Shown here one piece after another: positions 27,716 to 64,000 of a DNA stretch of 64,000 nt. Where the stretch lies: contig CAWAYJ010000017.1 of NCBI GenBank assembly GCA_963786235.1, positions 245,855 to 309,854 of the forward strand. Reading direction: 5' to 3'. The stretch is from an uncultured Gemmatimonadales bacterium (GTDB lineage: Bacteria; Gemmatimonadota; Gemmatimonadetes; Longimicrobiales; RSA9). How positions within the stretch are numbered: the first letter of the stretch is position 1; each line of letters opens with the position of its first letter. Under the pieces are notes generated by a model. The model was not told the origin of the DNA and did not search any database. It worked only from the letters and a program-made list of their open reading frames with translations. Both the position numbers and the translations under genes were made by a program.

Positions 27716-27719
27716 AGCA

Positions 27720-29695: not shown

Positions 29696-30006
29696 CCGGT
29701 GCCGCGCGTATACTCGGGAACTGGTGTTCGCACATCCGCTTCGCGATACCGCCGAGTCGGCATTTGGTCCCGATTCATCCGCTTTTGGGCATAGTGCCAT
29801 GGTTCAGGTGAAGGTAATTTGGGAATGCACCTTTGGGGCCCCCGAGGAAAGAGGAAAGATCGAACTGGAGTGGCATGGATCGGGCTGAGCGACTGCCGAA
29901 GTCGTGTGTTGTAGAATACACTCCAGATCTTCCTCGGAAGTTGAGCATAGACTTGGCCACACGAGGTGCGGCCGAAGATGATCCCCTGACCAATGGAGGA
30001 TACGCC

Positions 30007-34192: not shown

Positions 34193-34214
34193 GGGGGCCG
34201 TTGTCTTGGTTGTG

Positions 34215-34709: not shown

Positions 34710-34792
34710 GAGTTGTAGGCGTGGGGAAGAGGTTGCCAGCTAAGCCAACGCGGGTGGCATCCGGCATTGAGACGAACGAAGGGAGGCTGACG

Positions 34793-34993
34793 ATGAAGAA
34801 GATTGTTCTCTCTGTTGTGTTTGCCGGGCTTGCTGCGCTCGGAGCAATGAGCTATTCGGCAGGCAGAGTGGCTGCGGCTGACGAGTGGCCTTTGGATCAC
34901 CCATTCGGCCGCGATTGTGAGCCGGGTTGTTACACGGTTTGTGGACCGCTCTGCTTTTGCTGCGATCAGAATATCTGTGGGCAGGGCTGTTAG
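34793..34993 (+). CDS. Small secreted Cys-rich peptide, 66 aa
   Basis: MKKIVLSVVFAGLAALGAMSYSAGRVAAADEWPLDHPFGRDCEPGCYTVCGPLCFCCDQNICGQGC. GGGAGG lies 6 nt upstream. There are eight Cys in the last 25 residues. The start is the internal Met of track ORF 34721..34993. Confidence 0.65.
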   Translation: MKKIVLSVVFAGLAALGAMSYSAGRVAAADEWPLDHPFGRDCEPGCYTVCGPLCFCCDQNICGQGC

Positions 34994-35029
34994 CAAGTCT
35001 ATGAGCCATGTAGTACGCGTCGTGCGAAA

Positions 35030-35341
35030 ATAGGATGCACCGAATGCTCCCCGCGTTGGCTGGTATGACGTTCGACCGCCCGCACGTAGTCACGGTTGCG
35101 AATAGCCGCCGGTGTAGCCGGCGGCCTGAATCTCCTCGAGGAGTCGGACCGAGGACAGCTCCGGGTACGCCTCGAGTCGGTGGCCGATGATCGCCTTGTA
35201 GGGATCCAGCTTCGTCGGCCGCGGCGGCCAGGACCGGTAGCGCGGCGCCTCGTCCAGATCCCGGTCGAGTTCGCCGGCCGCGATCCAGCGGGTGATCGTC
35301 CGCCGGTCGATGCCCAGTTGCCGGGCGATCGCTCGCTTCTG
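35030..35341 (-). mobile_element. istA: IS21-family istA 5' remnant (HTH region); truncated and frameshifted
   Basis: The minus strand encodes ..KRAIARQLGIDRRTITRWIAAGELDRD...LDPYKAIIGHRLEAYPELSSVRLLEEIQAAGYTGGYS, then a stop. RDYVRAVER continues in another frame. An in-frame stop directly precedes QKRAIA. Confidence 0.7.
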
Positions 35342-35371
35342 TCATCCATCATCTGAAATTCCCCACCCCGG

Positions 35372-35680
35372 TCACGTTGTAGGGACGGGTTCATGGGCCT
35401 GGGCGGACCGCAGGAGCCCGGCCCGGCGTTTCTCTTTCAGGCGGTAGCTCTCTCCTTTGATGTTGACGGTGGTGGCGTGGTGGAGCAGCCGGTCGAGGAT
35501 GGCGCTGGCGATGATGGTGTCGCCGAAGACGTCGCCCCAGGCGCCGAGGCTCTGGTTGCTGGTGAGCGGGATGGAGCCCCGTTCGTAGCGGCGGGAGACG
35601 AGCTGGAAGAAGAGGTTTGCGCCCTGGCGGTCGATGGGGATGTAGCCGATCTCGTCGATGATCAGGAGCTCAGTGGTGGG
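35372..35680 (-). mobile_element. istB: IS21-family istB 3' remnant (from Walker B to the C-terminus)
   Basis: The minus strand encodes ELLIIDEIGYIPIDRQGANLFFQLVSRRYERGSIPLTSNQSLGAWGDVFGDTIIASAILDRLLHHATTVNIKGESYRLKEKRRAG. The N-terminal half, including Walker A, is absent. Confidence 0.75.
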
Positions 35681-35817
35681 GTGGCTAGGTTTCCGCGGCC
35701 CATTGCCCGCCGCCGGGATCGCGGAAGCTCCGGCGGATTTGTGCCAATATTTGTGCAGAAAAAGGCCGTATCTGGCCGTAGGTGGTCAGGGCACTTCAGA
35801 GCGAACATTCAGCATTT

Positions 35818-48449: not shown

Positions 48450-49004
48450 TCAGGCGGCCATCTGCGCGAGACGGTCGTTCACGATGCGGAACCGTTGCCG
48501 CATGTCCTCGCCGACGCCGTCGAGGCGTCCACTGAGCGCGAGCGTGCCGGCCTCCAGAGCCTCGATGCGCGTGTTCATCTCTTCGACCTGGCCCGCGACC
48601 GCACCCACGCGCGCCTCGAGGACGTCGATCCGCTCCGCGAGTATCGCCACCTGATCGCGCACATCGCGGACGGCGGCCATTACCCGGTTCTCGAAGTGCT
48701 CGACCCGCAACGCAAGCGTCGAGAAGCGCTCGTCCATCGTGGCGATCCGATCCTCGATGGCTTCGAGTCGGGCCTCGATGGCATCAAACCGGGCCTCGAT
48801 GGCATCAAACCGGGCCTCAACCCCGGCCTCGAACCGATCCAGCCGAGACTCGAGCACCGCCAGTTGCTGATGGGTTCGCATTCCCGTGGCCTCGATGTGC
48901 CCGACGATCCTCTCGAGCATGCGGTCGAGGTCCGCCCTGGTCGCGAATTCCATGCTGGAACCATACCGGCGCATCCGGGGCCTCGCCATGGCGGTCTGGG
49001 TCAC
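48450..49004 (-). CDS. Coiled-coil hypothetical protein with heptad repeats
   Basis: 184 aa, highly helical, with repeats such as RFDAIEARFDAIEARLEAIEDRI. It contains an exact 21-bp tandem duplication at 48770..48811. Confidence 0.5.
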   Translation of the reverse strand: MTQTAMARPRMRRYGSSMEFATRADLDRMLERIVGHIEATGMRTHQQLAVLESRLDRFEAGVEARFDAIEARFDAIEARLEAIEDRIATMDERFSTLALRVEHFENRVMAAVRDVRDQVAILAERIDVLEARVGAVAGQVEEMNTRIEALEAGTLALSGRLDGVGEDMRQRFRIVNDRLAQMAA

Positions 49005-49146
49005 CGAAGGGCGGGTCGACCGCGCCCCCGCTGCCGGATCCGCGAGGGATCACGCGCGGGAAGCGGGTAACCATGGACAACGTGGCGCCACCGGCCCATC
49101 CCGGAGGGGACAGGAGAAAACGGTCGCCGGCGGTCGTTGGTGGCGA

Positions 49147-49830
49147 CTATCGCGTTGGGGATAGGGATGGCGCCTCAAATAGATACGTGATCTCAAATCG
49201 TTGCTGTTTCTGCCCTTCCACGAGCGTGGTGTGGACCTCGATGCCCTCCAGTAGGGCCCCTACGATCTCCATGCGCGTCTCATCGTCCAGGTCGAGGTCC
49301 CGGTAGCCTGCGAGCAGCCCCGCGACCGTAGCGCCACGGGAGGCGGCTTCCTGGGCATTCACGAGTCGAGTGTCCAGTTCCTCGAGCTGGTCTTGGATCG
49401 CGGTGGTCTCCTTGGCGACCTCGGCGAGCTCCCGATCGGCCTCTTCCTCGCTCAGCACGCCGCGGCGGAGGCCGGCGACCACGCGGGCCCGTTCGGCTTT
49501 CTTCGCCTCCAGCGCGCCGTCGAGTTTCTTCCTCTCGTCCGCGAGTTGCTCGGCCGTGTCATCGGTCTCCGTGAAGTAGGCCTCGACCTCTTCGGCTAGC
49601 GCCCCGGGGTTCTGGAGCATGGCGTCGATGTCGGCCCAGACCAATTCCTCGAGCCACTCGGCGCGGATAGCTTTGTGCACGCACTCGCCCGTATGGCCGC
49701 GACGCCAACGGTCACGACTGATGTTGTAATACTGACGGCGGATACCTCCGGTGTCGTCAAATGCCTGCCCCACGTACACCGTAGCACAAGCGGCGCAGCG
49801 CACCTTGCCGCGGAGGAGGTTGAGCCGCTT
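49147..49830 (-). pseudogene. Large serine recombinase, C-terminal fragment (zinc-ribbon and coiled-coil region); the resolvase catalytic domain is absent
   Basis: The last 227 aa of track ORF 49147..50661: LLRGKVRCAACATVYVGQ...GECVHKAIRAEWLEELVW... followed by a long coiled coil. The upstream part of the ORF is Arg-rich, not recombinase-like, and overlaps 50391..51554. Confidence 0.7.
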
Positions 49831-50390
49831 GGCGGCCGCAGCGCGAGGACTGGACGCGCGGCTTTCAGGACGGCCTCGAAGGCAACGACTTCGATCCCTG
49901 ATCGCTTGGACCCATAATGCCCGTGCTGGCCCGACGTTCCTATTGACACTTCGGATTGTGCGGGCACATCTTGCTGTCGCTGCTGGTGTTGTCTCCCCAG
50001 GACCCCAGTCTCCAGAGTGTCTGCCCACTGCAAGCAGACGCACGCCAAGTTCCCTGCAACGGGCTTCTGCATAGAGCAGGAGCCAGCAAACCGGTAGCTG
50101 AGTCATGGAGGCATTCTCACAACCGACCCTGCCTGACCACACTGCCCGGGATGCGCCCTGGCAGAGCGCTGTCCACGTGCGCGAGCGTCCGGCGGTGTGC
50201 GCACGTCGTTGTGTGGCGCGAATATTCCCCAACACGACCAAGCCCCGGCGACAACGCCTGAACCCGGCCCGGCCAAAGCACCTTCGGAGGTGCGCGGCAC
50301 GCGCCCGGCAACCGACCGATGGGGGGACCGATGTCCAGCGGAACGATGAGACCAATGAGCGCCGCCTGCGTGGCAGGACGCTACAACTTG

Positions 50391-51554
50391 ATGAGGCCGC
50401 GTGGATCACTTGAATCAGCGCGTCTGCTCGCCAGGATCCTCTTCTTGATACCTGTCGCGGCAGTTGCTGCGTGCATAGGACGCGAAGGCGACGCAGCTCC
50501 CGGCGAGATCCGAGAGGACCTATGTGCCACGTGCAAGATCGTACTCGACGACGCGGTCCACATCGGGTCGTCAAACGGTTGGGCGGTGCTCTCACAATTC
50601 GCGTACTTCGGGATCGATGAACGCGGGTGGGTGGTTGTAGCGGACCCAATGTCCTATCCAAACCAAGTACTTTTCCTGAGTTCCGCTTCTGATACGATCC
50701 CTACGCCTATCGGTCGGGAAGGGGCTGGCCCTGGCAAACTGCTGCGCATCACGGGGTTATGGACAAGCGATCAGGGTGTCCACGTGTTCGACGGCGGCAC
50801 TGGTCGAGAGACGGTGTTTGACACAGCGGGTCAGTTTCTGAGTACCTATGTGTACAGGTTCGGGCCGATCGGCCGTCTCGGTTCGCGGATTCCCCTGGAC
50901 GGGAACCGTTTGCTGATCAACGCTACTATACGAACACCCGACAACGCGGGCTATCCTCTTCATATTCTCGACTCCGAAAGAAGAATAGAACGTTCCTTCG
51001 GAGCGGACACCGCACTCCTCCTACCCGGGTTCGTGGATTTCAATGCGCGTGCCTTGGCATGGTCCAGCGACAGTGTGCTCTGGGTTGCGAGATTCAACGA
51101 ATATCGTATCGAGAAGTGGACGTTGAGGGGGGAACACGTCCTCACTCTCATCAGACATCCAGACTGGTTCGAGCCTTGGTGGACAGTAGAAACAACGGAC
51201 TACATGGTTGCGGCGCCTCCACCGTCATTGGCATGGATTCATGAAGACAAGGAACGTCACCTACTGTGGTTGATGTTCTGGCTCGCGGATTCGGACTACC
51301 ATCCGGTGAAGAAAGCGACCGATCCGCAATCACGGATCAACAAAGTGGAGATGAACCGTTTCTTCGATACGATGGTCGAGGTGGTCGACTTGGTGACCCG
51401 CACGGTAGTTGCGCAACGACGCTTCGGTCCGCTCTTCGGGGTCGCCGGGGATGCGTTGATCTACGAGCAGTCTGAGGCCAATGATGGGTCAGCTCGCTTC
51501 GTTGGCTACACATTTCGACTTGCTGGTTATGAGGAGGGGCAACGGCAGGAATGA
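50391..51554 (+). CDS. NHL-like 6-bladed beta-propeller lipoprotein (paralog 6)
   Basis: Lipobox AAVAAC, the motif GREGAGPGKL, and the C-terminal ..ARFVGYTFRLAGY. Confidence 0.75.
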   Translation: MRPRGSLESARLLARILFLIPVAAVAACIGREGDAAPGEIREDLCATCKIVLDDAVHIGSSNGWAVLSQFAYFGIDERGWVVVADPMSYPNQVLFLSSASDTIPTPIGREGAGPGKLLRITGLWTSDQGVHVFDGGTGRETVFDTAGQFLSTYVYRFGPIGRLGSRIPLDGNRLLINATIRTPDNAGYPLHILDSERRIERSFGADTALLLPGFVDFNARALAWSSDSVLWVARFNEYRIEKWTLRGEHVLTLIRHPDWFEPWWTVETTDYMVAAPPPSLAWIHEDKERHLLWLMFWLADSDYHPVKKATDPQSRINKVEMNRFFDTMVEVVDLVTRTVVAQRRFGPLFGVAGDALIYEQSEANDGSARFVGYTFRLAGYEEGQRQE

Positions 51555-51605
51555 GAGCGCATTGTGGTGGCGACGTTCATTAGACCGCATCAAAGGAGGC
51601 CAAAA

Positions 51606-51770
51606 ATGAAAGGCGTTTGGGCCGTTACCGCGATCGGTGCATTGGCGATTCTGGGTGTCGGTGCACTGGTCGTGTCGCCCAAGGAGGCGGATGCAAGCGT
51701 TTTGACGTGGACTCTGGAGCAAAGTTCGTGCCATTCTCAGTTGCGAATCGTGCGTGTTCCATTGCAGTAG
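51606..51770 (+). CDS. Small signal-peptide ORF, 54 aa
   Basis: MKGVWAVTAIGALAILGVGALVVSPKEADASVLTWTLEQSSCHSQLRIVRVPLQ. An AAAGGAGG SD lies upstream. The position (just after a propeller gene) and N-terminus resemble 22053 and 34793, but the tail has only one Cys. Confidence 0.4.
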   Translation: MKGVWAVTAIGALAILGVGALVVSPKEADASVLTWTLEQSSCHSQLRIVRVPLQ

Positions 51771-51863
51771 GCTTCATCAACCTACCCATCAGCCCAGCGG
51801 AGCGCCATCCTCAATCACGGGGACTTATGCAGAGCTTCCTTAGCGGGCTCCGGCAACGGCCGC

Positions 51864-52307
51864 ATGGCCAGGATTCGCGATTCTCTGCTGGTGCTTCTTC
51901 GGGCCGACCCGCCGTTTCGGACCGTGAAAGAGTGGTGCAGGGCCGTGTCGTGCTCGGTATCGACGATGGAGAAGTGGTTCTCAAGCGCGTTCGCTTCAGG
52001 GATTACGCCGCAGTTCGTCCAGGAAGCCGTGCGCTTGTACAGGGCCCTCGACGCGTTTCCGCAAGCCCGCTCGTGGACGAAGCTCGGGTGGCATGCATCG
52101 ACATGGTACGAGAACGGGCAACTCAGCCCGGAGACACTATCCGACATGGCGGCCCGGCTGCTCGGGAGGATCCGGGTACCCGATGAGATCCGGAGAAGCC
52201 GTGGCTCATCCGATCGCTGCGGCAGGTGGGACCCTCCACTCGTCGAGAAACCCGCGGACATCGATCGACGCGTGTTGTTCGACGGGCTCGTGCTGCTGCT
52301 CCGGTGA
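51864..52307 (+). CDS. AraC-like HTH half of the receiver-like regulator family; N-terminally truncated paralog, possibly a pseudogene
   Basis: FRTVKEWCRAVSCSVSTMEKWFSSAFASGITPQFVQEAVRLYRAL aligns with the C-terminal half of 28862..29695. No receiver-like part precedes it. Confidence 0.5.
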   Translation: MARIRDSLLVLLRADPPFRTVKEWCRAVSCSVSTMEKWFSSAFASGITPQFVQEAVRLYRALDAFPQARSWTKLGWHASTWYENGQLSPETLSDMAARLLGRIRVPDEIRRSRGSSDRCGRWDPPLVEKPADIDRRVLFDGLVLLLR

Positions 52308-52666
52308 GATGACACCGAGCCACGTCGGAGCCGATCGAATGGGAGTGGATTTGATTTCGGCGTTTGCCGGCGATTCTTCCGCGTTTCCCGGTTGGAGCCG
52401 GGGCGCGACCGGGCGTATCTTTGAATCAGTCGGCGGATCGGGACGACATCGATTGATCCGTCGCAGCTGCCGTCGAACCGCATGTTGTGGCGAGAGTTCG
52501 GGAGTTGCCTGACGGTGGCGAGAAGGCGGAGGAGCCCCAAGAATGCACAGGGGGGTAGGTGCCAGTAGGGGGACGTTCCTTTCCGAGGAGTCCGCTGCCA
52601 GCATCGTGTTGGAACCACAACCGGGAACGCAGACGTTCATTGGCGCAACTCAACCTAGAGGCGTGC

Positions 52667-53761
52667 ATGGCAAAATGTGCGGTCGGGGTGGGACGACACA
52701 GAAGCCCGCCAGGGCAATGGCGTGTATTCGCCGTGCTCACAGTGTTTGCTTCCGCGTGCGGTACCGACACTGGCGGAGTCCGAACGACGCGACTCGCATT
52801 CCAATCCGAGGCCCGAGGTGACACAACGGACATGCAGATGCCGTTCAAGGCGGAATCGGGCGCCGATGGCCAAGCGTACGTGAGTACGGGGACGCTGTCG
52901 GGGTTGGTGATGGTCTTCGACTCTCTTGGCCACCTCGTGGGGACGGTCGGTGGCCGGGGTCCTGGCCCCGGCGAGTTCAGGCAGCCTACGTTCGTTGTCA
53001 GCAAGGCTGATTCGGTGATGGTCGGAGATCTCGACGGAGACATATCGTTGTTCGATTCCACTGGTCGATTCATTCGAATGCTACAATGCAAAGTGGTCGG
53101 CAACCCTGATGTCTTGCTACTGCGAGGAGACACAATGGTGGTGGCAACGCATATTCCAACGCCGCAGCGCTTTGGTCTGCCGCTGCATGTTGTGGCGCCT
53201 GACTGCACTATTGTGCGCTCGTTCGGCAGTGAGGATCGCACGGTGGATCCGAAGTTCAGCAAGGCGTTGCTAAGGCCGCTTGCGCAAGAGAACGACACGT
53301 CGTTCTGGGTTGCCAGACCCGATCGATATGTTCTGGAGCTATGGTCTATCACGGGCAGGAAGTTGAAGGAACTCGCCATCGAGCGAGAGTGGTACGAGCC
53401 GATGACGATGGATGGCAGAGGCTATGGTGTGGATCGTCCTGGCAGCATCGTGATGAGCTTGCACAGGACAAGGGCCGGGTACCTGACAGTTCTTCTACAA
53501 CGGGCACGTTCCGATTGGAAACAACGAGACATGCACAATGCAAGTGCGGAGAAACGCTATTTCGCCCTTGCGGACTGGCTGGAATACGTAGAGCAGATTG
53601 TAGAGGTGGTCGATACGGCGTCTGGGAAGCTGGTCGGGAGCACGAGCAACACTACTGGGGACTACCTGCTGCGCTTCCTAAGCGACGGACGGCTCTTTGG
53701 AACTCGCGCGAAGGAAGATGGGTTGCAGGTTCCGGTGTTTTGGCGCGTTGCGGTTAACTGA
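52667..53761 (+). CDS. NHL-like 6-bladed beta-propeller lipoprotein (paralog 7)
   Basis: Lipobox VFASAC, the motif GGRGPGPGEFRQP, and the C-terminal ..LQVPVFWRVAVN. Confidence 0.75.
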   Translation: MAKCAVGVGRHRSPPGQWRVFAVLTVFASACGTDTGGVRTTRLAFQSEARGDTTDMQMPFKAESGADGQAYVSTGTLSGLVMVFDSLGHLVGTVGGRGPGPGEFRQPTFVVSKADSVMVGDLDGDISLFDSTGRFIRMLQCKVVGNPDVLLLRGDTMVVATHIPTPQRFGLPLHVVAPDCTIVRSFGSEDRTVDPKFSKALLRPLAQENDTSFWVARPDRYVLELWSITGRKLKELAIEREWYEPMTMDGRGYGVDRPGSIVMSLHRTRAGYLTVLLQRARSDWKQRDMHNASAEKRYFALADWLEYVEQIVEVVDTASGKLVGSTSNTTGDYLLRFLSDGRLFGTRAKEDGLQVPVFWRVAVN

Positions 53762-53783
53762 CAATCAAACGGGTGAGGTTGTG

Positions 53784-54320
53784 ATGCGTACTGGAATGTA
53801 TCTCTGTGGAGTGACGGCGATGCTTATATGCTGTCTGCCGGTCGACGCAGCCGCACAGGAGCGCGGTAAGGTGAAGCCGGACGCTGTTGCAGTGTGTGAG
53901 TACGGTACGCAGGAGGGCGCCTGTTGCGCTTGCATTAACGGTGGCATGGTTGACCTGCACAACTTCCATGGTACCGAGCAATGCACATATGGATCGAGCT
54001 GTGCCTCGTGCGAAGGCAGTTCATGCCCTAAGGGTGATTGTCACTACGCAAGTGATGCGGAGGGGTCGTGCGAGACGTGGCACGACGCATGTGCGTCCGG
54101 ATTCGCATCGGCCGTTGGGGCGGCTGTCCGTGCTGGTTCAGCCGCGGTGTACGCGGTTGCGCGTGAGCACCCGGAGTTCGTACGAGTGGTAGATTCCGCG
54201 TACGTGATCCTGATGGACTGTACGGGACGCTACGTTGTGGAAGCGAGGCGCCTGCCGAAAGTGGACGTTGCACAGACCGTTGAGGATAACAAGGTTACCG
54301 TGGTTGCTGCCAAGTACTGA
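53784..54320 (+). CDS. Secreted Cys/His-rich protein, family member C
   Basis: Signal ...CCLPVDAAAQ. Motifs: CCAC, HNFHGTEQC, CASC. The C-terminal domain has VILMDCTGRYVVEARRL. Confidence 0.6.
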   Translation: MRTGMYLCGVTAMLICCLPVDAAAQERGKVKPDAVAVCEYGTQEGACCACINGGMVDLHNFHGTEQCTYGSSCASCEGSSCPKGDCHYASDAEGSCETWHDACASGFASAVGAAVRAGSAAVYAVAREHPEFVRVVDSAYVILMDCTGRYVVEARRLPKVDVAQTVEDNKVTVVAAKY

Positions 54321-54513
54321 ACATTCGCGCTTACGTTAGCAGCACTGACGCTTGCGATATTCTCATGGATCGGAACGGCCGGCAGGTTGCGCGAAGGAAC
54401 GTGGCTTGGAGGCTCGCGAATGTGTTGGCGGGTTGCGGTTAAGCTAAGCGCCGTCGCCGGCCGGTTTCGCCCCGTGTGGCACACTCCAACTACCCAGATG
54501 AGGAGGCGAACGA

Positions 54514-54996
54514 ATGAAAGCCCTGCAACGCAGTATCGCCACCATGCTCGTCATCGGAGCGTTCATTCCACTGGAAGGGTCTACTCGCAAAGCCGGGAGC
54601 GGGAATGATTATCTCTCCCTCCCAATTACTGACGGCGATTGTGAACTGCTCTGCATGGAATGCTCCGTGGGTCACAGCATGGACACACAAGTCGACCCGG
54701 ACCACGCGAACCACGGCGGCGCGCACGGGTGTTTGGGACCTTACCCTTGCAGGATCGTGGATCATCCCCCGTGTTCCCAGTCTTTCGCATCGTTGGACCT
54801 CCACACTAGGAATGAGCTTTGGAGCGTCCTCATTGGCTCGGACGCAATGGCTATCCGTAGCACGTTGGCGGCGCACCCTGATTACATGTGGCTAAATGTC
54901 AAACGCCAAAGCATCCAAATCGCCGGCTGTGCGCCCGGTACCGTTGCCTACAACATTCCGGTAGATTCATACTTGCTCGGCATGATCGCGGAGTGA
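54514..54996 (+). CDS. Secreted Cys/His-rich protein, family member D
   Basis: A GAGGAGG SD lies upstream and the N-terminus is signal-like. Motifs: CMEC, HANHGGAHGC. The C-terminal domain has IQIAGCAPGTVAYNIPVD. Confidence 0.6.
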   Translation: MKALQRSIATMLVIGAFIPLEGSTRKAGSGNDYLSLPITDGDCELLCMECSVGHSMDTQVDPDHANHGGAHGCLGPYPCRIVDHPPCSQSFASLDLHTRNELWSVLIGSDAMAIRSTLAAHPDYMWLNVKRQSIQIAGCAPGTVAYNIPVDSYLLGMIAE

Positions 54997-55112
54997 CTTG
55001 CCCGGAGCCATTCTGAATCCTGGATCAATCGGGACGACCTCGTCGGTTGCCGTCGTGGAGGCGGTGAGGTGCCACAGTGACATAGACGTTGAACTACGGA
55101 AGGGAGTTTACG

Positions 55113-56234
55113 ATGTCTCCGCGTGGCCATGTGCGTTTGCGAGCCGCGACGACCCTATGCTGCGTCTGGCTCAGCACAGTTGGTGTGGCCGGTCAGACAG
55201 TCAGCTTGCAGGAGGATCCGGATTGCGCTGGCTGCGTGATCAGGGCTGAGCTGAAGGCAGTACTTGGCGGGTCGGGAACAGATTATGTCGGTCCGTCAAT
55301 GATGATTGATAGCAATTCGAAAGGCCAATTCATCCTTGCACATGATCAGGCTGCCGATGAGATCCGCGTATTCGATTCGCGGGGAAGGTTCGTCAGGATA
55401 GTTGGACGGGAGGGACACGGGCCAGGGGAATACGAAGGTATCCGGGCAATATGCGTACTTCCCGGCGACACTGTGCTGGTTTTTGACGGGAAGAACGCTG
55501 CAGAAACAACGCTCGGACCTGGCTTTGATCTTATCGAGTCGAGGAGGTTTCCGTTGCCTGCGATCAGCCCGGGCGGCGTGGTCGCCTTCTCGAGCAATGA
55601 GATCGTTGCGAACGCGTCCGTCAGTACACCGGAGCGAGTTGGCTTGCCGTTGCATCTAGTGGAAGCGGGAAAGGGCATCGTGCGGTCGTTCGGCTCCGAC
55701 GACGGTGCCTACCGGGCGGATGTCGATGGGTCGGGCACTAGACGGATTAGTCGCGGGTCGAATGGTACTGTGTGGTCAATGCGCATCAATGAGTATGTTC
55801 TCGAGCAGTGGTCAACGGATGGAAGAAAGGTGCGGGCGTTGCGGCGCGAGGTTGACTGGTTCCGGACGTGGTACAGATACCCGAGTGTGGTCGATGGACA
55901 ACACCCAATGCCTCCGATGACGCGCGCCGTCCATGAGGACTCAGCTGGTTTGGTATGGGTGGCGGTGGAGCTGCCCGGCGGAAATTGGGCGAAACAAGGC
56001 TTGGACGCTGAGACAGCTGACGGCCGCCGCTTTATTCCAGACCCAGTGAAGGCATGGGATACGATGGTGGAAGTCATCGATCCCATCCGAGGATTTGTTC
56101 TCGGGTCGGTCCGCCATCCGGGGCGCGTATTGTTCATTACTTCGCACGGCGACATGGTCATCAACGCTGAGAGAGATGACGGCACACCGACGTTGGAGAT
56201 TTGGAGCTTCTCGCTTGCAAGAAACATGCGATGA
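55113..56234 (+). CDS. NHL-like 6-bladed beta-propeller protein, secreted (paralog 8)
   Basis: An AAGGGAG SD lies upstream. Signal ...STVGVAGQ, the motif GREGHGPGEYEGI, and the C-terminal ..PTLEIWSFSLAR. Confidence 0.75.
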   Translation: MSPRGHVRLRAATTLCCVWLSTVGVAGQTVSLQEDPDCAGCVIRAELKAVLGGSGTDYVGPSMMIDSNSKGQFILAHDQAADEIRVFDSRGRFVRIVGREGHGPGEYEGIRAICVLPGDTVLVFDGKNAAETTLGPGFDLIESRRFPLPAISPGGVVAFSSNEIVANASVSTPERVGLPLHLVEAGKGIVRSFGSDDGAYRADVDGSGTRRISRGSNGTVWSMRINEYVLEQWSTDGRKVRALRREVDWFRTWYRYPSVVDGQHPMPPMTRAVHEDSAGLVWVAVELPGGNWAKQGLDAETADGRRFIPDPVKAWDTMVEVIDPIRGFVLGSVRHPGRVLFITSHGDMVINAERDDGTPTLEIWSFSLARNMR

Positions 56235-56684
56235 TGTGAATTGTGGCGACAAGAACCCCCGGCCGTGTTGAGCCGAGATTGATGGCCGAGCGGAGACTTG
56301 ACGGACGCCGGTGAAATTCTTGGCCCGGCCGCAAGGGTTGCAGCCATCGCGGCAAACTGGACCACGGATGCGCCTCTCCGCCAAGTAGTGCAACGACAGC
56401 AACTTCCGGGGACCTACAGTACCGCCCGGAGGTTTGGACCTAGGCGCTCGCCCACATGTCCAATGCTGACCGGGTTAAGACACTTGGATTCCGGTCCGAT
56501 CACGCACGAGCCTTCTCAACCTTGATGCGGTAAACCCATCGCGTTGGGGTTGGGGATCGGCATGGCCCGAGGATTCGACGGAAAGTCGTCGCCTCGGGTT
56601 GATGCCGCCCGGAGCGGCCGGTGGGCACATTGCCGGGGAACCGCCGCACCTCGACAAATGCTTACCCCCTAAGTAGATTCAAAC

Positions 56685-57131
56685 ATGGACCTTCCTGACG
56701 ACGTGCGCGAGCAGTTCCGACGGCACGGCCGCATGGGTGGCCTCCGGCGCGCCGAAGGCATGGAGCCTGCGGCTCGGCGAAGCGTGGCCCGCCGTGCCGC
56801 CGCGGCACGCTGGATCCGGCGACGCTTCGGTGCGCCGAGCTTCGAGGAACTGGGCCTGCCGGGCGGCGAGTCGGTGGACGCCGGTCTGGCCGACCTCGCG
56901 GCCGGACGCGTGAGCGCGGCGAGTCTGGCAGTGTCGATTGCCGCGCCCCGGCTCCGGCGCGAAGGAGTGCCGATCGGTCCGGTTCTGGACGATCCGGAAC
57001 GCCGCCTTTTCGCGCTGCTGCAGAACACCGAGGGAGATCTGGCGCACGCGCGCTACAACGCCTGGCTGCGCCAACTGGTCTCCTTCGCCGATGCCTGCCA
57101 CCAGATTCGCGCGGGCCGGCGCGCTTGCTGA
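56685..57131 (+). CDS. Hypothetical protein, duplicate of 39296..39742
   Basis: 148 aa, nearly identical to 39296..39742 by eye. Confidence 0.45.
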   Translation: MDLPDDVREQFRRHGRMGGLRRAEGMEPAARRSVARRAAAARWIRRRFGAPSFEELGLPGGESVDAGLADLAAGRVSAASLAVSIAAPRLRREGVPIGPVLDDPERRLFALLQNTEGDLAHARYNAWLRQLVSFADACHQIRAGRRAC

Positions 57132-57373
57132 GACGCGAGCTTACGGGCGAGGCGCTGCGGGAGCTGATGGGCGAGCTGGCGCGCACGGCGCCGCGCGGGG
57201 GGATGTTCCGGGTTTACCTGGTCGGAGGCGGCACGGCAGTTCTGGCCGGCTGGCGCTCTGCCACGATCGACGCCGATCTGTGCGCCGACCGCGATGAGGT
57301 TTTCCGGGACATCCAGGGAATCAAGGAGCGGCTCCAGCTGAACATCGAATTCGTCCGGCCGGAGGACTTCGTC
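57125..57373 (+). pseudogene. DUF6036-like nucleotidyltransferase gene, truncated after ~80 codons
   Basis: It matches 39736..39985. The track ORF then runs into unrelated sequence (..VRPSAFMISGISRRL..). Confidence 0.65.
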
Positions 57374-57391
57374 CGGCCGAGCGCTTTTATG

Positions 57392-57925
57392 ATCTCCGGA
57401 ATATCCCGGCGGCTCCGTGCATTGAGCTTGTCCCGGACGATCTTGACGTGATTGCTGGCCGTGTTCAGGGCGATGCAGAGGGCCTGGGCAATCTCGCGGT
57501 CGGACCGCCGTTCGTTCAGTAGAAGTGCTACCTGCGCCTGCTGGCGTGTAAGCTGGAAACGGCGGCGAAGGTCGCGTTGGTCGGGCGCGGAACGAGCCGG
57601 TTGGACGACGACGACGTACTTGGCACCGGTGCATGGGGAGACCTCATGAACTTCCACGTCGCACAGTTCTCCCCGGACAGTTTTCTGACCCGCGAAAACC
57701 CGTCGGAGCCCTTCTGCTTCATCGGGGGACGGTTGACCATCCGGGAATCCATCGGACAGAATCGCCTCAAGACCCTCATCGAAAAGGGCCTCCAGTACAC
57801 TGGGGGGCGACTCCAGAAGCATTGGCAGCACTCGCGGGGCATCAGTCTACGGGATGATCGCACCACCGGCTGACAATGTCGTGAAACGCGGTCACACGGA
57901 GTTTCGCCACATAACCTGTTGTCAT
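57392..57925 (-). pseudogene. LuxR-family regulator, copy 2; disrupted near the N-terminus and truncated at the 3' junction
   Basis: The N-terminal MTTGYVAKLRVTAFHDIVSRWCDHPVD runs into a stop (track ORF 57842..58069). The rest, including the GerE HTH, lies in another frame (57214..57831), whose end reads through the junction. Confidence 0.65.
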
Positions 57926-57941
57926 GGGGCCACATGGAGAG

Positions 57942-60380
57942 ATGGATAACGGCTGGGTGATCCGCCTCGAACTGCTTGGGCCGGTCCGCCTGCTTGCCGC
58001 CGACGGACGCAGCCTTGATGCCGTCGTGCGCCAGTCGAAGCGTCTGGCGATTCTGACGTACCTGGTCATCCATGACGGGTTCGTGCGCCGGGACCCTCTA
58101 CTGGCTCTCGGTTGGCCGGAGTCTTCAGACCGGTCGGCGCGGCGTGCGCTGAATCAGACGATCCACTTCCTCCGGTCGGAACTTGGGCAGCACATCATCT
58201 CACGGCGGGGTGCGGGCGAAGTGCGCGTGTCTCCTGACCATGTGTCGAGCGACGTGGTCGACTTCCGGCGGGCCATTCAGGAGGGACGATTCGGCGACGC
58301 GATCGATCTCTATCGAGGCGAACTGCTGAGTGGGGTGCATGTGGCCGATTCCGTCGAGCTATCCCAATGGCTTGACGGCGCACGTGACGAGTTTCGGCGT
58401 GAATCTGTCGAGGCGGCCTGCAGGCATGCGGAGAGATTGGCGGCTTCGGGCAGATTCCAGGCAGCAGAACAGACAGCGAGAAAAGCCCTCAAGATCGAAC
58501 CGACCAGCGAGGTGGCCGTCCAGGTCTTGGCACGGACGCTCCTGCAAGCAGGGGCGCGACCCGCAACTCTCAAGGTTCTGAACGAATTCCGGGCTCGCCT
58601 GGAATCCGAGTACGGGATCGAGCCATCCGCTGAGACCTTGCGTTTGGCGGAAGCGGCGGCCAGCGAGACAGGATCGCCGATCGAGGCGATCCCAGAGCCG
58701 GTCTCGGATCCGATCGAGAACACTACTAAGGACGCGCCGAACCCAGCTGCGGAGCCGTCGCCACCGGCGCGGCCAAGTCGGCCACTGTGGGGGCTGGCAG
58801 GTCTCGCGATCCTGTTGGCTGCGGTTCTGCTGCTTGGCCGTGTCGCAATCCGGCACGGGACCGAGGCTACCCCGAGTGCCGCAGCCTACCCCGCGAACCG
58901 GGTGGCCGTGATGTATCTCCAACCTCGCGGTGATCTCGGGGACCTGGACTACCTGCCTGATGCGCTCACCGAAGCGGTTATCGACCAACTCAGCATGACA
59001 GATGGGCTCGAGGTCATTGGCCAGTCAGATGTCCGGTGGCTACAGAGCGACCCGCAACCGGCCGCCGCCATTGCGGAGGCTTTGAACGTCGGCACCGTCG
59101 TGGTCGGCACGGTGTCGCGGCAGGGCGATAACGTACGAACGAGAGTCCAGGTCGTAGAAGCCGACGACGGTGCTGTCCGAAGTGTGATGGACATTGCCCG
59201 TTCCGCCGTTCCGCCGATGGACCTGGTCGCGTTCTGCGTCGACTCTATCACCGCTGGTATCCGAGAGGCACTCGGGCGTTCGGTCGAACTGACACACTGG
59301 CATGCCGGCACGAATGACGAGCGGGTCTGGGAACTCGTGCAACGTGCAAGCGCGTTGCGTCGCTCTGCGGTCTCTCTCGCTACGCGTGGGGAGCTCGGCA
59401 ACGTGCCACGCGTTTACGCGGCTGCGGACTCACTTCTTTCCGTGGCGTCGTCGACAGACCGTCGCTGGAGCGTTCCCGATCTGTTTCGAGCTCAACTCGC
59501 AGGGGAATCGGCGGTCTACTGCATGGCCCTCCCGCGAATGCAGGCTCACAAACGGGCTTGAAGTCGGTCGAGCGAGGTATCGGTTTCGCACGCGAGGCCA
59601 TTGCCCGAGCAGCCGGACCATTCCGAGAGTCATACAGAACTTGGCACGCTCTACTTCCTGGGGTCGCAGTTGGTTGATTCCACCCGCACGACGGTGTATC
59701 GCGACTCCGCCAAGGAAGCCTTCCATGCAGCAATCGCCCAAGTCCCCGCGGGAATGCCATGGCCTGGAGCCGTTTGTCCGCGGTTCAGTACTCCAAGGGT
59801 GAATTCGCCGAGAGCAAACGCATTCGGCGCGGGAGGCCTATCGAGCCGACTCCTACCTTTCGAACCGCGCAGAGGTTCTGGGACGCCTGTTCCTGACGAG
59901 TCTGCACTTGGGGGCGGACGACGATGCACGGTACTGGTGCCGGGAGATCGAAGCGACGTCAGCCGGCACTTGGCCAGTGGCTTTCTGCGACCTTTGCCTG
60001 ATTGCATTCGTGGACTCGGTGATGCCGGATCCGGACTCGGCCAGGAATCTCGTACGCGTGCACGCGCGTGCGGATCCTACCCCAAGGCGATGATGCCGAG
60101 GCTGGAGATGCTGGTGGCGGCCGCTCTGGGCCGTGCAGGCATGGTGGACAGTGCCCAAGCCTTGATTCGAACCACGCTCCAAGAAGGCCGCGGCGATCCA
60201 CAAATGGCCCTTTTCCATGCGGGAGCCTTGCTGGCCATCGGTTCCCGGGATTCGGCCAGAGCTGTGCTCGAACGGTATGTTCACGAGAATCCTGCGGAAC
60301 GGTCTGCCGTGACTCGCTGGCGTTGGTTTCAACCGCTCGGGTTAATCCAAGCACTCCCGGAGGACAGCTACAGCAAGTAG
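57942..60380 (+). pseudogene. SARP/BTAD-TPR regulator, copy 2, with several frameshifts in the C-terminal third
   Basis: Colinear with 24976..27402 up to ..AVYCMALP, where it hits a stop at 59561. Homologous segments continue in 59601..60380 and 59908..60093 in different frames. Confidence 0.75.
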
Positions 60381-60570
60381 AACTTAGCGGCGAACCCACG
60401 CCGGTGGCAGACGGGGCTTTGAACGCCAACGTGGATCTCTCCGGTTTCCTGAGTCTCCCAAGAAATATAGCCAATTATTGGTCATGCGCCATCGCAGCCC
60501 GGATTACATGGTGGAGAGACCGGTCTGAATAGCCGGATCGTGGTTTCTCAACTCGGACGCGGAGTCAACC

Positions 60571-60723
60571 ATGCGGGTTCGGCGTGGGCATGTGCTAGTG
60601 GTGATCGTGATTGCGGCATTGGGTCTCGTTGCTGGGTGCCGGGATGGCATCACGGAGCCGCCCCCATCTGCGGGCGAGGTCTGCTTCTGGATCGAAGGCC
60701 AGTACATCTGTATCCCGGGCTGA
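60571..60723 (+). CDS. Small lipoprotein-like ORF, 50 aa; not in the ORF track
   Basis: My own translation: MRVRRGHVLVVIVIAALGLVAGCRDGITEPPPSAGEVCFWIEGQYICIPG. Lipobox LVAGC and GGAG 6 nt upstream. It is a paralog of 27560..27715. Confidence 0.6.
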   Translation: MRVRRGHVLVVIVIAALGLVAGCRDGITEPPPSAGEVCFWIEGQYICIPG

Positions 60724-60744
60724 GGTCCGGGGGGGTGATGAGGT

Positions 60745-61767
60745 ATGATTCACTTCCAGGGAGATTCTGACCGGCTCGCGGCCCCCGTGCAGCTGCCGGC
60801 TCATCGGGCCGAGCAACGTGATTCCACGGAGGTTTCCGGCAGACCGGGCGCGCAGCTAACTCGCGTGAACCCGAGAGGCATGGGCTGGATTCGTGACATT
60901 CCGAGCATCCGGGACCACGGTCCGTTCCACGAGCACGTGTCCATGAAGAAGATGCAATTGGGGCAGAATGAGTCAATTCGCGAGATGCTCGAGGAGACGG
61001 ATGCCCTGGATTCCGGGGTCGACCTCCCATCATCAGTCGACCTGCGCGAATGGTTCCCGCCCGTCGATGACCAGGGGTCGCTGGGATCGAGCGCCGTGCA
61101 CGCGGTGATCGGGCTCCTGGCGTACTTCGAGTACCGGGCGTGGGGCCGGCACGTGGATCTATCGAGCCGGTTCTTGTACAAGACGGCGCGCAAGCTCATG
61201 CAGCTCGAGGGAGACACCGGAGCGAATCCGCGGAGCGTTTTCGATGCCCTGGTGCGGTTTGGGGCACCACTGGAGCGATACTGGCCGCACGACGTGCAGG
61301 GTTTCGATGAGGAACCACCCCCGTTCTGCTACGGGTACGCGCAGGACTACCAGGCGCTTTCCTACTACAGACTCGACTCCGGTGGGATACACGGCGAGGA
61401 GTTGCTCGGTCGGATCAAGCGGCACCTCAACTCAGGCCTGCCCTCAATGTGCGGGTTCACCGTGTTTCGATCGATCCAGCAGAACGGCGATATTCCGTTC
61501 CCGACCGCTGACGAAACCGTCTTGGGTGGGCAGGCGGTCGTGGTCGTCGGGTTTGACGATCGTAGGGTGATCGCGAATCCTGACCCTGTCGGGCCGAAGA
61601 CCCGCGGAGCATTGCTGGTACGGAATTCCTGGGGCGAGGAATGGGGCAAAGCTGGGTACGGGTGGCTCCCCTATCGATATGTCGTGGATGGACTAACCGC
61701 CGACTGGTGGTCGCTGATCCGGTACGAGTGGATCGAGACCGGGGAGTTCCAGCGCCCTGAACGATAG
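60745..61767 (+). CDS. Papain-like (peptidase C1) homolog with substituted catalytic Cys and His, copy 2
   Basis: DDQGSLGSSAVHA (Ser in place of the catalytic Cys), LGGQAVVVVGFDD (Gln in place of His), and VRNSWGEEWGKAGYGWLPY (Asn retained). Confidence 0.8.
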   Translation: MIHFQGDSDRLAAPVQLPAHRAEQRDSTEVSGRPGAQLTRVNPRGMGWIRDIPSIRDHGPFHEHVSMKKMQLGQNESIREMLEETDALDSGVDLPSSVDLREWFPPVDDQGSLGSSAVHAVIGLLAYFEYRAWGRHVDLSSRFLYKTARKLMQLEGDTGANPRSVFDALVRFGAPLERYWPHDVQGFDEEPPPFCYGYAQDYQALSYYRLDSGGIHGEELLGRIKRHLNSGLPSMCGFTVFRSIQQNGDIPFPTADETVLGGQAVVVVGFDDRRVIANPDPVGPKTRGALLVRNSWGEEWGKAGYGWLPYRYVVDGLTADWWSLIRYEWIETGEFQRPER

Positions 61768-61863
61768 GCACCTTGCGGTACGGCTGGTTGGCTGTGGCCG
61801 CGTGCTGATCGGTGCTGATTGCCGCAGCCATGTGGTCACGTGGTTCGACGTCTGGAGGGTATC

Positions 61864-62652
61864 ATGCGAGTCGCAGCGTATTGCCCGCCGAGATTCAGGA
61901 GCCTCGTTGAGCCAGCCATCGGAACTCCGGCTGCGTTTCACGAACGGTGGCCGGATTTCGAGAGGGCGGTCGGCGGCGCGGACTGCGGCGTGGCCGTGAT
62001 CGAATGGCTGGATGAATCGCCGGGCGCCGTCGACCTGAATGCCTTGCGCGCCGACCAGCCGTGGACGCGGGTTGTCGTGGTCACGCGAATGGACGGCGAA
62101 AACGCGCTCGTGGCACCGAACGTGGCCGACTCAATCGTATGGATTCGCCACGCCCGGGCCCTATTGAGGAAGGCAGTAGAGACGCCACAAGGCGGCCTTC
62201 GAAGCCGCATGGCCAGCTTCATCAGAGACAGTCTGGTTTGCTCGATGCAAACGAAGGTGGCTCTGCTCGAGGCGACCAACGCGGATCCACCAATCCGCAC
62301 CGTTGCGGAGTGGGCAGACCGTCTCGCAACAACTGTCCGGACGCTCGAGAGGTGGTTCGCAAGAGACTTCGCGTCTGGGATCACCCCCAAGCTCCTCCTG
62401 GATGCCACAGTAATCGTGTGGGCACGGGACCGATTCCCGGCTGCGTCGTCCTGGACCGGACTCGGCAACCATGCCGAGGCGGACCCGCAGATGCTCAGAG
62501 AAACCGCCGTCAGGCTGATCGGCGCATCGCCAAGCGCCGACGCGACATGGCTCCTCCGAGAGTTCAGGCGCGGGACCCGAGTGTCTCCCGAGATGGTTGG
62601 CCCCACTTCCCTTGCAGAGGGGCTAGCCGCCCTGCTGCGGTCGCGATGGTAA
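61864..62652 (+). CDS. Receiver-like plus AraC-like HTH regulator (paralog of 13043 and 28862)
   Basis: MRVAAYCPPRFRSLVEPAIG...VAVIEWL...VVVVTR...IRTVAEWADRLATTVRTLERWFARDFASGITPKLLLDATVIVWA. Confidence 0.6.
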   Translation: MRVAAYCPPRFRSLVEPAIGTPAAFHERWPDFERAVGGADCGVAVIEWLDESPGAVDLNALRADQPWTRVVVVTRMDGENALVAPNVADSIVWIRHARALLRKAVETPQGGLRSRMASFIRDSLVCSMQTKVALLEATNADPPIRTVAEWADRLATTVRTLERWFARDFASGITPKLLLDATVIVWARDRFPAASSWTGLGNHAEADPQMLRETAVRLIGASPSADATWLLREFRRGTRVSPEMVGPTSLAEGLAALLRSRW

Positions 62653-63336
62653 GGCTGCCCATTCGACGCCAAAGCCCCGGTCCTTTCAGCGAGCCACGGA
62701 TTGTCGCATTCGCCGGCGATTCTGTCGGATTCTCCTTTGGAGTTGGCCGGACTGCCCTGTAAATTGAACCTGTCCGGATGACAGTGTTGTTCGGCTCTCT
62801 CGGAGCCGGCGATGTGAAACGACAAGCGGACCCGGGAAGCAAGCTCGACCGGAGATTGGAAGCCTCGTGGTAAAGAAACGCGCCAGTTTCGCGGTCCGGC
62901 CGGTTCAGCGTGGATATAGAATCCGGACGTGGGTGCAAGGGCCTAACCATCGAGGAAGACGTCCTGATGAACCGCCAGGAACGACCGGGCTGACGATGGT
63001 GCGACTTGCGGCGCAATTGTTGGGGGTGACCGTTCGTGCCAGCGGGCTGTAGAGTGCGAGAAAACGACAAGGCATGTGCTCAGGACTGTAGCGCCCTCGA
63101 GGCCGTCACTAGGCCGATACATGTTACAAAACGTGACAAGAGCAGTGTTTTCCGGCCGGAGTACGCGAGCTCGGTGCCGAAACCCGCGAAAGTACCTGTG
63201 CCAAGGGTAATGTGAGTTTCCCTGGCGTAAAGATGTACAACGCCGCATTGTAATCGCATGAACGACTAGCAATCGGGATTGCGGCTCTGGCCGGAATGAC
63301 GCGACAAAGTGGAAACACGAATAGGAGGGCGATTAC

Positions 63337-64000
63337 GTGTCGACGCGCGCTGTAGTGCTCATCGGGCTAGTGATGGCGTTTGGGTGCGAGGAAGCCGATT
63401 CGGCTTATGTGGCCACGCTTGTACCCCGGGACTCGGCACGAGTTGCTGTACTCGACGCGCGCAATCCGGAACGCACACGGGGAAGCGCATATCGTATCGA
63501 ACGCACAATCGGCGGCCAGGATGACAACGAGACCGGAGCGTTTAGCTATGTGACAGGCCTAGCTGTGCTAACGGATGCGTACATTGTCGCCGACAAAGAC
63601 TTAGGTCTACGATTGTACGGGGTCGGAGGGGATTACACTCGTACCCTCGGCGGCCCTGGTTCTGGGCCTGGAGAGTTCAAGTTGCTGTCCTGGCTCGGCA
63701 CATTGGCGGGCGATAGCATCGTGGCGTTTGCCGTCGGTCTGGGGCGGGGTTCGGTGTTTGATAAACGCGGGAACCTCGCACGTATTGTATCAATGGCGGC
63801 ACCCGGGCTGGTATTTGACGTCACGAAGACCGGTCGATTTGTTGCTGTGACAATGGCGACTGCCGAGGGCGAGCAAGCACAAGGTCATAAGGTGTGGGGC
63901 GTCGCATCGGTAGTGGTGTCAGATCCGAGTGGTGTGTTTCAGGACTCCATCGCCACCTTCAGGCCCTTCTTATGCATGAAAGTTGTCAATGGGATATGCG
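63337..64000 (+). CDS. NHL-like 6-bladed beta-propeller lipoprotein (paralog 9); the 3' end lies outside the window
   Basis: Not in the ORF track because there is no stop within the window. GTG start with AGGAGGG 7 nt upstream. My translation, VSTRAVVLIGLVMAFGCEE...LGGPGSGPGEFKLL..., is open to position 64000. Confidence 0.65.
   Translation, partial: MSTRAVVLIGLVMAFGCEEADSAYVATLVPRDSARVAVLDARNPERTRGSAYRIERTIGGQDDNETGAFSYVTGLAVLTDAYIVADKDLGLRLYGVGGDYTRTLGGPGSGPGEFKLLSWLGTLAGDSIVAFAVGLGRGSVFDKRGNLARIVSMAAPGLVFDVTKTGRFVAVTMATAEGEQAQGHKVWGVASVVVSDPSGVFQDSIATFRPFLCMKVVNGIC

What the first reader, a model, noticed from the sequence alone, without database searches (positions are those of the whole stretch)
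49140..49830. Both accessory islands start with homologous 3' remnants of a large serine recombinase gene
49147..49830(-) encodes only the zinc-ribbon and coiled-coil C-terminal part of a large serine recombinase; no resolvase domain is present.

21535..21712(-) is a ~180-bp homolog of its extreme 3' end plus about 25 bp of downstream flank (compare ggcgataaacgcgttgaggtcagg with ggcgactatcgcgttggggataggg).

In both cases the propeller-rich, lower-GC region begins immediately to the right. This suggests two related integrative elements, or one duplicated element, that have since been immobilised.
Basis: partly seen in the sequence, partly recalled or inferred. Interest (0 to 1): 0.6.

Follow-up and report, generated by a model that had tools for sequence, protein, structure and literature searches.

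The report
Two dead serine-integrase gene stumps
Two lower-GC accessory gene islands in this Gemmatimonadales genome each begin with the leftover tail end of a phage-type integrase gene, which marks where two related mobile elements once inserted and then lost the ability to move; this is an ordinary kind of genomic fossil.

Summary
49147..49830(-) encodes only the zinc-ribbon, coiled-coil and C-terminal tail of a large serine recombinase (LSR). It matches residues 287-511 of full-length relatives, and no resolvase or recombinase domain survives in any frame. 21532..21709(-) is a homolog of its last 55 codons (83.7% identity over 172 nt, E 9e-46), with a 1-bp deletion and a lost stop codon. 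The shared downstream flank is about 11 bp, not 25.

The two copies differ mostly at synonymous sites (16 synonymous, 7 non-synonymous; omega about 0.11). They therefore diverged as working genes, not as copies of a dead fragment. Their dS (0.58) and GC3 match the neighbouring LuxR and BTAD-TPR genes that both islands share in the same order.

The closest full-length relatives (about 40% identity) are prophage integrases at the extreme prophage edge, with the gene's 3' end running straight into a split host recQ-like gene.

Best reading: these are relics of two related LSR-borne integrative elements, immobilised by different 5' deletions.

Not shown: att repeats, empty sites (relatives share no synteny), or that the whole islands were cargo. 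The islands are mosaic, with an IS21 relic, pseudogenes and recent duplications. A known phenomenon; low interest.

The parts
49147..49830 (-). LSR relic B. It has 227 codons plus the stop (TAG, 49147-49149) and covers the zinc-ribbon domain, the embedded coiled-coil and the C-terminal tail. The reading frame is intact. The N-terminal ~287 residues (resolvase catalytic domain and recombinase domain) are missing. Public databases annotate it as a 210-aa hypothetical protein (P0001).
21546..21709 (-). LSR relic A. It holds the last 55 codons only. It has a 1-bp deletion at about 21587/21588, and the stop codon has changed to TTA.
49136..49146 (-). Short stretch just past relic B's stop codon that is still alignable with locus A (21532-21545). 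All A/B similarity ends here. This is where an element/host junction would be expected by analogy with the relatives.
21710..35700 (.). Island A (GC 0.57-0.65). Gene order: Cys-rich peptide, CxxC protein, DUF5128 propeller, LuxR/GerE (24174-24953 -), BTAD-TPR (24976-27402 +), Peptidase_C1 (27720-28751 +), unknown 327 aa, two more propellers, CxxC protein, Cys-rich peptide.
35375..35671 (-). C-terminal relic of an IS21 IstB ATPase (profile positions 154-238 of 238). It forms the right end of island A.
49831..64000 (.). Island B (GC 0.55-0.64), which runs off the window. Gene order: three propeller paralogs, Cys-rich secreted ORFs, a truncated DUF6036 TA-like module copy (56522-57374), LuxR (57214-57831 -), BTAD-TPR pseudogene (57942-60380 +), Peptidase_C1 (60745-61767 +), unknown 277 aa.
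57396..62027 (+). Block shared with island A (24437-29025), in the same order and orientation relative to the LSR relic. Identity is 81.8% over 2961 nt and 74.6% over 1171 nt.
20496..21484 (+). Outer (left) flank of locus A: a HicB/nucleotidyltransferase (MNT) plus HEPN toxin-antitoxin pair, GC3 0.84-0.86. It is unrelated to the outer flank of locus B.
48450..49004 (-). Outer (left) flank of locus B: a 184-aa coiled-coil protein gene, GC3 0.84, lying between pstA and the LSR relic.

Best explanation
The two sequences are fossil 3' ends of two related LSR (serine integrase) genes.

Inferred history:
1. Each integrase sat at the outer edge of an integrative element, transcribed outward, with its 3' end lying on or next to the element/host junction.
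2. The two integrases diverged from each other while both were still functional.
3. Later, independent deletions or replacements from inside the element removed the catalytic resolvase domain and the recombinase domain. In B everything upstream of the zinc ribbon went. In A everything but the last 55 codons went.
4. Excision is now impossible, so the neighbouring DNA is fixed in place.

The adjacent LuxR and BTAD-TPR genes probably shared this history, because they have the same synonymous divergence, similar GC3 and the same order and orientation. The rest of each island (propeller, CxxC and Cys-rich-peptide cassettes, TA modules, the IS21 relic) is a mosaic assembled by later rearrangement.

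Shown: identity of the fragments, loss of the domains, the homology, the purifying-selection signature, the compositional shift, and the architecture of the relatives.

Inferred: that the end of homology is a former att junction, and that LuxR-BTAD was cargo.
For: - Domain content and exact truncation point.
- A/B homology with E 9e-46.
- Codon analysis over 51 codons: 16 synonymous vs 7 non-synonymous changes, dS 0.58 (SE about 0.17 by my estimate), dN 0.064, omega 0.11, and 16 of 23 differences at third positions (p=4e-4).
- dS of neighbouring genes: LuxR 0.54, BTAD 0.51.
- GC3: LSR relics 0.76-0.78 and LuxR/BTAD/PepC1 0.70-0.76, against core genes at 0.89-0.96.
- Colinear shared block in the same orientation.
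- The outer flanks are unrelated and homology stops 11 bp after the stop codon.
- The closest full-length relative, P0002 (41% identity), is the terminal gene of an HK97-type prophage, which is also an IMG/VR viral contig. In P0002 and in P0003 (only 42% identical to each other) the int 3' end runs directly into a host recQ-like gene at the FGMGIDKP-coding site.
- No close full-length copy exists anywhere in 5.8 billion proteins, including this assembly.
Against: - No att-type direct or inverted repeat links the left junction with the right end of island A.
- The right end of island A is an IS21 relic.
- No empty site could be found.
- The selection and dS estimates rest on only 51 codons.
- Peptidase_C1 (dS 1.06) and the next gene (dS 1.64) do not share the LSR's divergence.
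- Homologous LuxR-BTAD-PepC1 modules in relatives have no LSR within 10 kb.
- The genes just outside the relics (TA pair, coiled-coil gene) have intermediate GC3 and may themselves be accessory. If so, the true old element boundary could lie further left.
Confidence: 0.7

Rival explanations
1. An intragenomic segmental duplication copied a block that already contained a dead LSR stump plus LuxR-BTAD-PepC1. The two stumps are then paralogous junk and say nothing about two integration events.
For: - The stump and the LuxR-BTAD block have similar nucleotide identity (83.7% vs 81.8%) and the same order and orientation.
- The window is full of other segmental duplications (9214-11180 ~ 13897-16320; 39127-39985 ~ 56522-57374).
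- A 99.4% identical copy of 60301-64000 sits on another contig.
Against: - Differences between the stumps are concentrated at synonymous third positions (omega 0.11, p=4e-4). That is not expected for neutral decay of a dead fragment.
- The similarity ends within about 11 bp of the gene's end, just where an element junction is expected. A random duplication breakpoint would not be expected to fall there.
Confidence: 0.1
2. One active element carrying an intact LSR copied itself, or re-integrated, into a second site of the same genome. Both copies stayed functional for a long time and then decayed in place.
For: The purifying-selection signature and co-divergence with LuxR-BTAD fit this as well.
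Against: - dS of about 0.5-0.6 is a large divergence to build up inside one genome while both integrases stayed functional.
- LSR elements move by excision and integration, not by replicative transposition (established knowledge; PMC3783163 for the reaction).
- The evidence here cannot separate this from independent acquisition.
Confidence: 0.13
3. Fragment B is not a mere relic. It is a retained, expressed stand-alone zinc-ribbon/coiled-coil protein, for example one that binds att-like DNA or the coiled-coils of incoming related integrases.
For: - The 681-nt reading frame is intact and aligns almost gaplessly to P0002 (225 aligned positions for 225 residues).
- Codon-position GC periodicity is preserved at 0.73/0.43/0.78.
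- Gene callers predict a 210-aa product.
Against: - In this high-GC DNA long open frames arise by chance; the same frame stays open for 277 further codons of non-homologous sequence.
- No homologs of this truncated architecture form a conserved family.
- Copy A is plainly decayed.
- There is no expression data.
Confidence: 0.05

Closest known systems
P0002-type prophage serine integrase (609-aa product on marine/other metagenome contigs, L002/L003/L093; IMG/VR UViG_3300000888_000018, L091), and P0003 (L004)
   Same: - These are the best full-length matches: 41% and 37% identity over the whole fragment.
- They share the unusual Cys-x2-Cys...Cys-x-His pattern in the zinc ribbon.
- The gene is the outermost gene of the element, with its 3' end facing host DNA.
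   Different: - The relatives are intact (Resolvase + Recombinase + Zn ribbon).
- They sit next to HK97-type phage genes and interrupt a recQ-like gene.
- The window copies lack the first ~287 residues (B) or ~460 residues (A). They have no phage genes nearby and no recQ fragment.
Characterised phage serine integrases (Listeria A118/LI integrase, phiC31, Bxb1)
   Same: Same C-terminal architecture: a zinc-ribbon domain with an embedded coiled-coil that binds the outer part of att half-sites and controls directionality (PMC3783163; Pfam hit).
   Different: - Sequence relatedness is at family level only.
- The catalytic NTD, helix alphaE and the recombinase domain, which are needed for dimerisation, DNA cleavage and half-site binding, are absent here. 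No recombination activity is possible.
Cryptic or defective prophages and decayed genomic islands with integrase pseudogenes
   Same: A truncated integrase gene sits at the boundary of a compositionally atypical region, with IS relics, TA modules and pseudogenes around it.
   Different: Most textbook cases involve tyrosine integrases next to tRNA genes. Here it is a serine integrase, there is no intact tRNA, and two related relics lie 27.6 kb apart.

Membership tests
Large serine recombinase (serine integrase) | N-terminal resolvase-type catalytic domain with the serine nucleophile (PF00239) | tested here: not met
   Pfam at E<=10 on all three frames upstream of both relics gives nothing. tblastn with four full-length LSRs finds nothing upstream of 49830 or elsewhere in the window.
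Large serine recombinase (serine integrase) | Recombinase domain (PF07508) following helix alphaE | tested here: not met
   Homology starts at P0002 residue 287, just after its PF07508 match (residues 176-278).
Large serine recombinase (serine integrase) | Zinc-ribbon domain (PF13408) with embedded coiled-coil and C-terminal tail | tested here: met
   Relic B scores 37.5 bits against a cutoff of 25.3, matches phrog_95 integrase and aligns to residues 287-511 of P0002. Relic A keeps only the last 55 residues of the tail.
Integrative element / genomic island delimited by site-specific recombination | Flanking att sites (short shared core, or pseudo-palindromic half-sites) at both ends | tested here: not met
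   Only chance-level 7-13-nt matches link the left junctions and the island interiors or right end. The right end of island B lies outside the window.
Integrative element / genomic island delimited by site-specific recombination | Empty target site in related genomes | tested here: inconclusive
   The closest relatives share only pstSCA (83% PstA identity, L008) or only the sortilin-like gene (85% in L088; 75% in L090). There is no synteny on either side.
Integrative element / genomic island delimited by site-specific recombination | Atypical composition relative to the host core | tested here: met
   GC is 0.55-0.65 against 0.67-0.74 for the core. GC3 is 0.62-0.78 against 0.89-0.96.
Prophage | Phage structural or replication genes | tested here: not met
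   Apart from the LSR fragment and the coiled-coil flank gene, the eight ORFs scanned against PHROGs (seven in the islands, one at 39158-39751) gave no hit. Pfam shows regulators, a peptidase and propellers. Not every small ORF was scanned.

The most novel reading that the evidence does not exclude
The LSR once mobilised a non-phage cassette typical of Gemmatimonadota accessory regions: a LuxR regulator, a membrane BTAD-TPR regulator and a papain-like peptidase, perhaps together with the propeller, DsbA-like and Cys-rich secreted-peptide triads. That would be a previously undescribed serine-integrase-borne island family. Alternatively, the intact ZD-CC fragment B could be retained as a decoy against related integrases.
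Probability: 0.15. Interest if true: 0.45.

Novelty: new member of a known kind. Interest (0 to 1): 0.2.

Why it matters
These relics are useful mainly as annotation.
- They flag two old insertion points in a very plastic 64-kb stretch of an uncultured Gemmatimonadales genome.
- They show that P0001 is a truncated integrase rather than a 'hypothetical protein'.
- They suggest that the LuxR-BTAD regulatory pair, which is widespread in this phylum, can travel with serine-integrase elements.

As a by-product, the nearest intact relatives define a small LSR clade whose members insert at the FGMGIDKP-coding site of recQ-like genes. None of this changes how such elements are understood.

Tried and rejected
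1. Residual resolvase or recombinase domain upstream of either relic: none in any frame.
2. tRNA or Rfam features at the junctions: none at gathering thresholds.
   - A degenerate tRNA-like sequence at 35775-35897 scores only 17 bits (E 0.9) against the tRNA-Sec model.
   - ARAGORN finds it only at relaxed settings that also produce obvious noise.
3. att-like repeats between the junctions and the island ends: chance-level only.
4. A possible third mini-copy of the LSR end at 56538-56566 (12/12 plus 16/18 matches with a 6-nt gap): E about 0.07-1, so not significant.
5. The idea that the flanks are decayed recQ fragments, because the flank of B reads 'IVATN...GMG' in one frame, like the relatives' target: local alignments score no better than dinucleotide shuffles, and tblastn finds no recQ piece in the window.
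6. Missing pstB as evidence that island B split the pst operon: rejected, because the closest relative also lacks pstB after pstA.
7. Empty-site search with BTAD (nothing found), PstA and orthologs of the sortilin-like protein: no usable synteny.
8. Closer LSR relatives in IMG/VR and JGI metagenomes: only the P0002 element and two distant hits.

Full report
**Source and setting**

The window is the reverse complement of roughly positions 2.9-66.9 kb of a 657-kb contig, ENA ERZ25039500 contig_11097. The organism is an uncultured Gemmatimonadales bacterium. The best PstA match (83%) is a Gemmatimonadales MAG, and the BTAD and sortilin homologs are overwhelmingly from Gemmatimonadota.

Core genes have GC3 of 0.89-0.96. 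These include AcrB, a TolB-like protein, DUF5916, GH43, a sortilin-like protein, two PadR/MacB-type permease units and pstSCA. They alternate with lower-GC accessory stretches.

**Checking the observation**

Remnant B, 49147..49830(-):
- It hits Pfam Zn_ribbon_recom above the curated cutoff and PHROG phrog_95 'integrase'.
- A word-indexed search of 5.8 billion proteins returns only the fragment itself, annotated as a 210-aa product.
- An exhaustive HMMER search finds 1218 relatives. The fragment aligns end to end with residues ~288-512 of ~540-aa proteins.
- Those proteins have the full Resolvase + Recombinase + Zn_ribbon_recom architecture.
- tblastn with four full-length LSRs starts exactly at 49830 (residue 287 of P0002) and finds nothing else in the window.
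- Pfam at E<=10 on all three upstream frames of both loci is empty.

Remnant A:
- Self-blastn aligns 49136-49307 with 21532-21702 at 83.7% over 172 nt, E 9e-46.
- At protein level relic A covers the last 55 residues. They are split by a 1-bp deletion, and the stop codon is lost.
- No further upstream similarity exists. The local alignment scores no better than shuffles.

The GC shift and the propeller genes to the right of both relics are real.

**What the relics were**

LSRs need an N-terminal catalytic domain, helix alphaE and a recombinase domain. The zinc-ribbon domain with its coiled-coil binds the outer half-site and sets directionality (PMC3783163, read). Both relics lack everything needed for catalysis.

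The nearest intact relative, P0002 (41% identity), is the last gene of an HK97-type prophage with capsid, portal, terminase and Prim-Pol genes. The same element is in IMG/VR.

Immediately after the conserved C-terminus of P0002, the DNA continues as the 3' part of a recQ-like helicase gene (FGMGIDKPDVR...YYQEAGRAGRDG) in another frame. P0003 is only 42% identical to P0002, yet it abuts the same recQ position.

In this clade, therefore, the 3' end of the integrase gene lies on the attachment junction and faces the host. The window relics have the same geometry. The 3' end points out of the island, and A/B similarity stops about 11 bp after the stop codon. Beyond that point the flanks are unrelated: an MNT/HEPN pair in A and a coiled-coil gene in B.

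**Two elements or one duplicated stump?**

Over the 51 comparable codons there are 16 synonymous and 7 non-synonymous differences:
- dS is 0.58 (SE about 0.17, my estimate from pS and S), dN is 0.064 and omega is 0.11.
- 16 of 23 differences fall at third positions (binomial p=4e-4 against one third).

A dead fragment duplicated in place would accumulate changes evenly over codon positions. This pattern means the two genes diverged while encoding a working protein. Their 5' truncations then occurred at different points.

The neighbouring LuxR (dS 0.54) and BTAD-TPR (dS 0.51) genes are as diverged as the LSR. They have similar GC3 (0.70-0.72 against 0.76-0.78 for the LSR) and lie in the same order and orientation in both islands. 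This suggests they have been linked to the integrase since the split.

Peptidase_C1 (dS 1.06) and the next gene (dS 1.64) are more diverged. The latter is closer to a third paralog at 13043-13834 than to its positional counterpart. So the modules have been reshuffled.

**Limits of the island-equals-element reading**

- The islands are mosaics. Island A ends in a C-terminal relic of an IS21 IstB gene.
- Island B contains a truncated 95%-identical copy of a DUF6036 TA-like module whose full copy is at 39.1-40.3 kb.
- Island B's BTAD gene is a pseudogene.
- Island B's last 3.7 kb in the window is 99.4% identical to the end of another contig with different neighbours.
- Homologous LuxR-BTAD-PepC1 modules in other Gemmatimonadota sit among defence genes and an IS1595 transposase, or among core genes. 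None has an LSR within 10 kb.
- A third low-GC patch with propeller paralogs has no LSR relic.
- No phage genes were detected in the islands.
- No att-like repeats were found.
- Empty sites could not be recovered, because even relatives with 75-85% identical flanking proteins share no neighbouring genes.

**Verdict**

These are fossils of two related serine-integrase elements that can no longer move. They are probably accompanied by part of their old cargo (LuxR-BTAD) and are embedded in later mosaic accretion.

This is a familiar kind of genomic archaeology. The LSR lineage is rare and distant from anything characterised, but nothing suggests a new mechanism. Interest is low, at about 0.2.

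The most novel reading still open is a non-phage, LSR-borne island family carrying the LuxR/BTAD/peptidase cassette, or a retained stand-alone ZD-CC protein. I put that at roughly 15%.

Noticed in passing
window 57942-60380 (+): The BTAD-TPR gene of island B is a pseudogene. It has an in-frame stop at 59559-59561 and an out-of-frame stretch compared with the intact 808-aa paralog at 24976-27402. One public annotation calls only the 539-aa N-terminal part.
   Followed up: partly
window 35375-35671 (-): C-terminal relic of an IS21 IstB ATPase (Pfam E 1e-34, profile positions 154-238 of 238), with no istA. It forms the right edge of island A.
   Followed up: partly
window 35775-35897 (+) and 48376-48433 (+): A degenerate tRNA-like sequence with an Arg-CCG-like anticodon arm, a GGTTCGAATCC T-loop and a ~50-nt insertion in the D region. 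It scores only 17 bits (E 0.9) against the tRNA-Sec model. It lies just right of island A. A 58-nt partial copy (81% identical) that lacks the T-arm lies between pstA and the coiled-coil gene left of locus B. Its meaning is unclear; it could be an old tRNA-type target or an unrelated repeat.
   Followed up: partly
window 39127-39985 vs 56522-57374: A 93-95% identical repeat that carries a 148-aa ORF and the start of a DUF6036 nucleotidyltransferase gene (a TA-like pair). The island-B copy is cut off where the LuxR gene begins.
   Followed up: partly
window 9214-11180 vs 13897-16320: An 88-97% identical duplication of about 2 kb that includes an AbiEii-type toxin gene (14567-15451). It brackets a third low-GC patch with a propeller paralog (11207-12367 -) and a paralog of the gene that follows Peptidase_C1 (13043-13834 -; 68% aa identity to 61819-62652).
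   Followed up: partly
window 22053-23972 (-) and 33044-34993 (+); also 53697-54996 (+): Mirror-image triads at the two ends of island A. Each triad is a DUF5128 propeller, a ~200-aa CxxC protein and a small signal-peptide-bearing Cys-rich peptide (58 and 90 aa). Cys-rich secreted ORFs also follow a propeller in island B. DsbA-like genes followed by small ORFs occur in the related loci L005 and L092. This may be a secreted disulfide-rich peptide system.
   Followed up: no
window 60301-64000; L092 9557-13254: This stretch (Peptidase_C1, the unknown 277-aa gene and beyond) is 99.4% identical to the end of a different contig of the same assembly (contig_7267). The sequence to its left is different there, and the match begins 80 bp before the BTAD stop codon. 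Both contigs end within a few kb of it, so it is either a recent duplication or a strain-level assembly branch.
   Followed up: partly
L002 11520-12265; L004 960-1077; L091 6660-6969: Two prophage serine integrases only 42% identical to each other (P0002, P0003) both abut the same position of a host recQ-like helicase gene, at the codons for FGMGIDKP. The integrase reading frame runs on into host DNA. This points to a small LSR clade with a conserved recQ target.
   Followed up: partly
window 45153-48240: pstS-pstC-pstA is not followed by pstB or phoU. The closest relative (L008) also lacks pstB after pstA, so this looks like a lineage trait and not damage caused by the island.
   Followed up: partly
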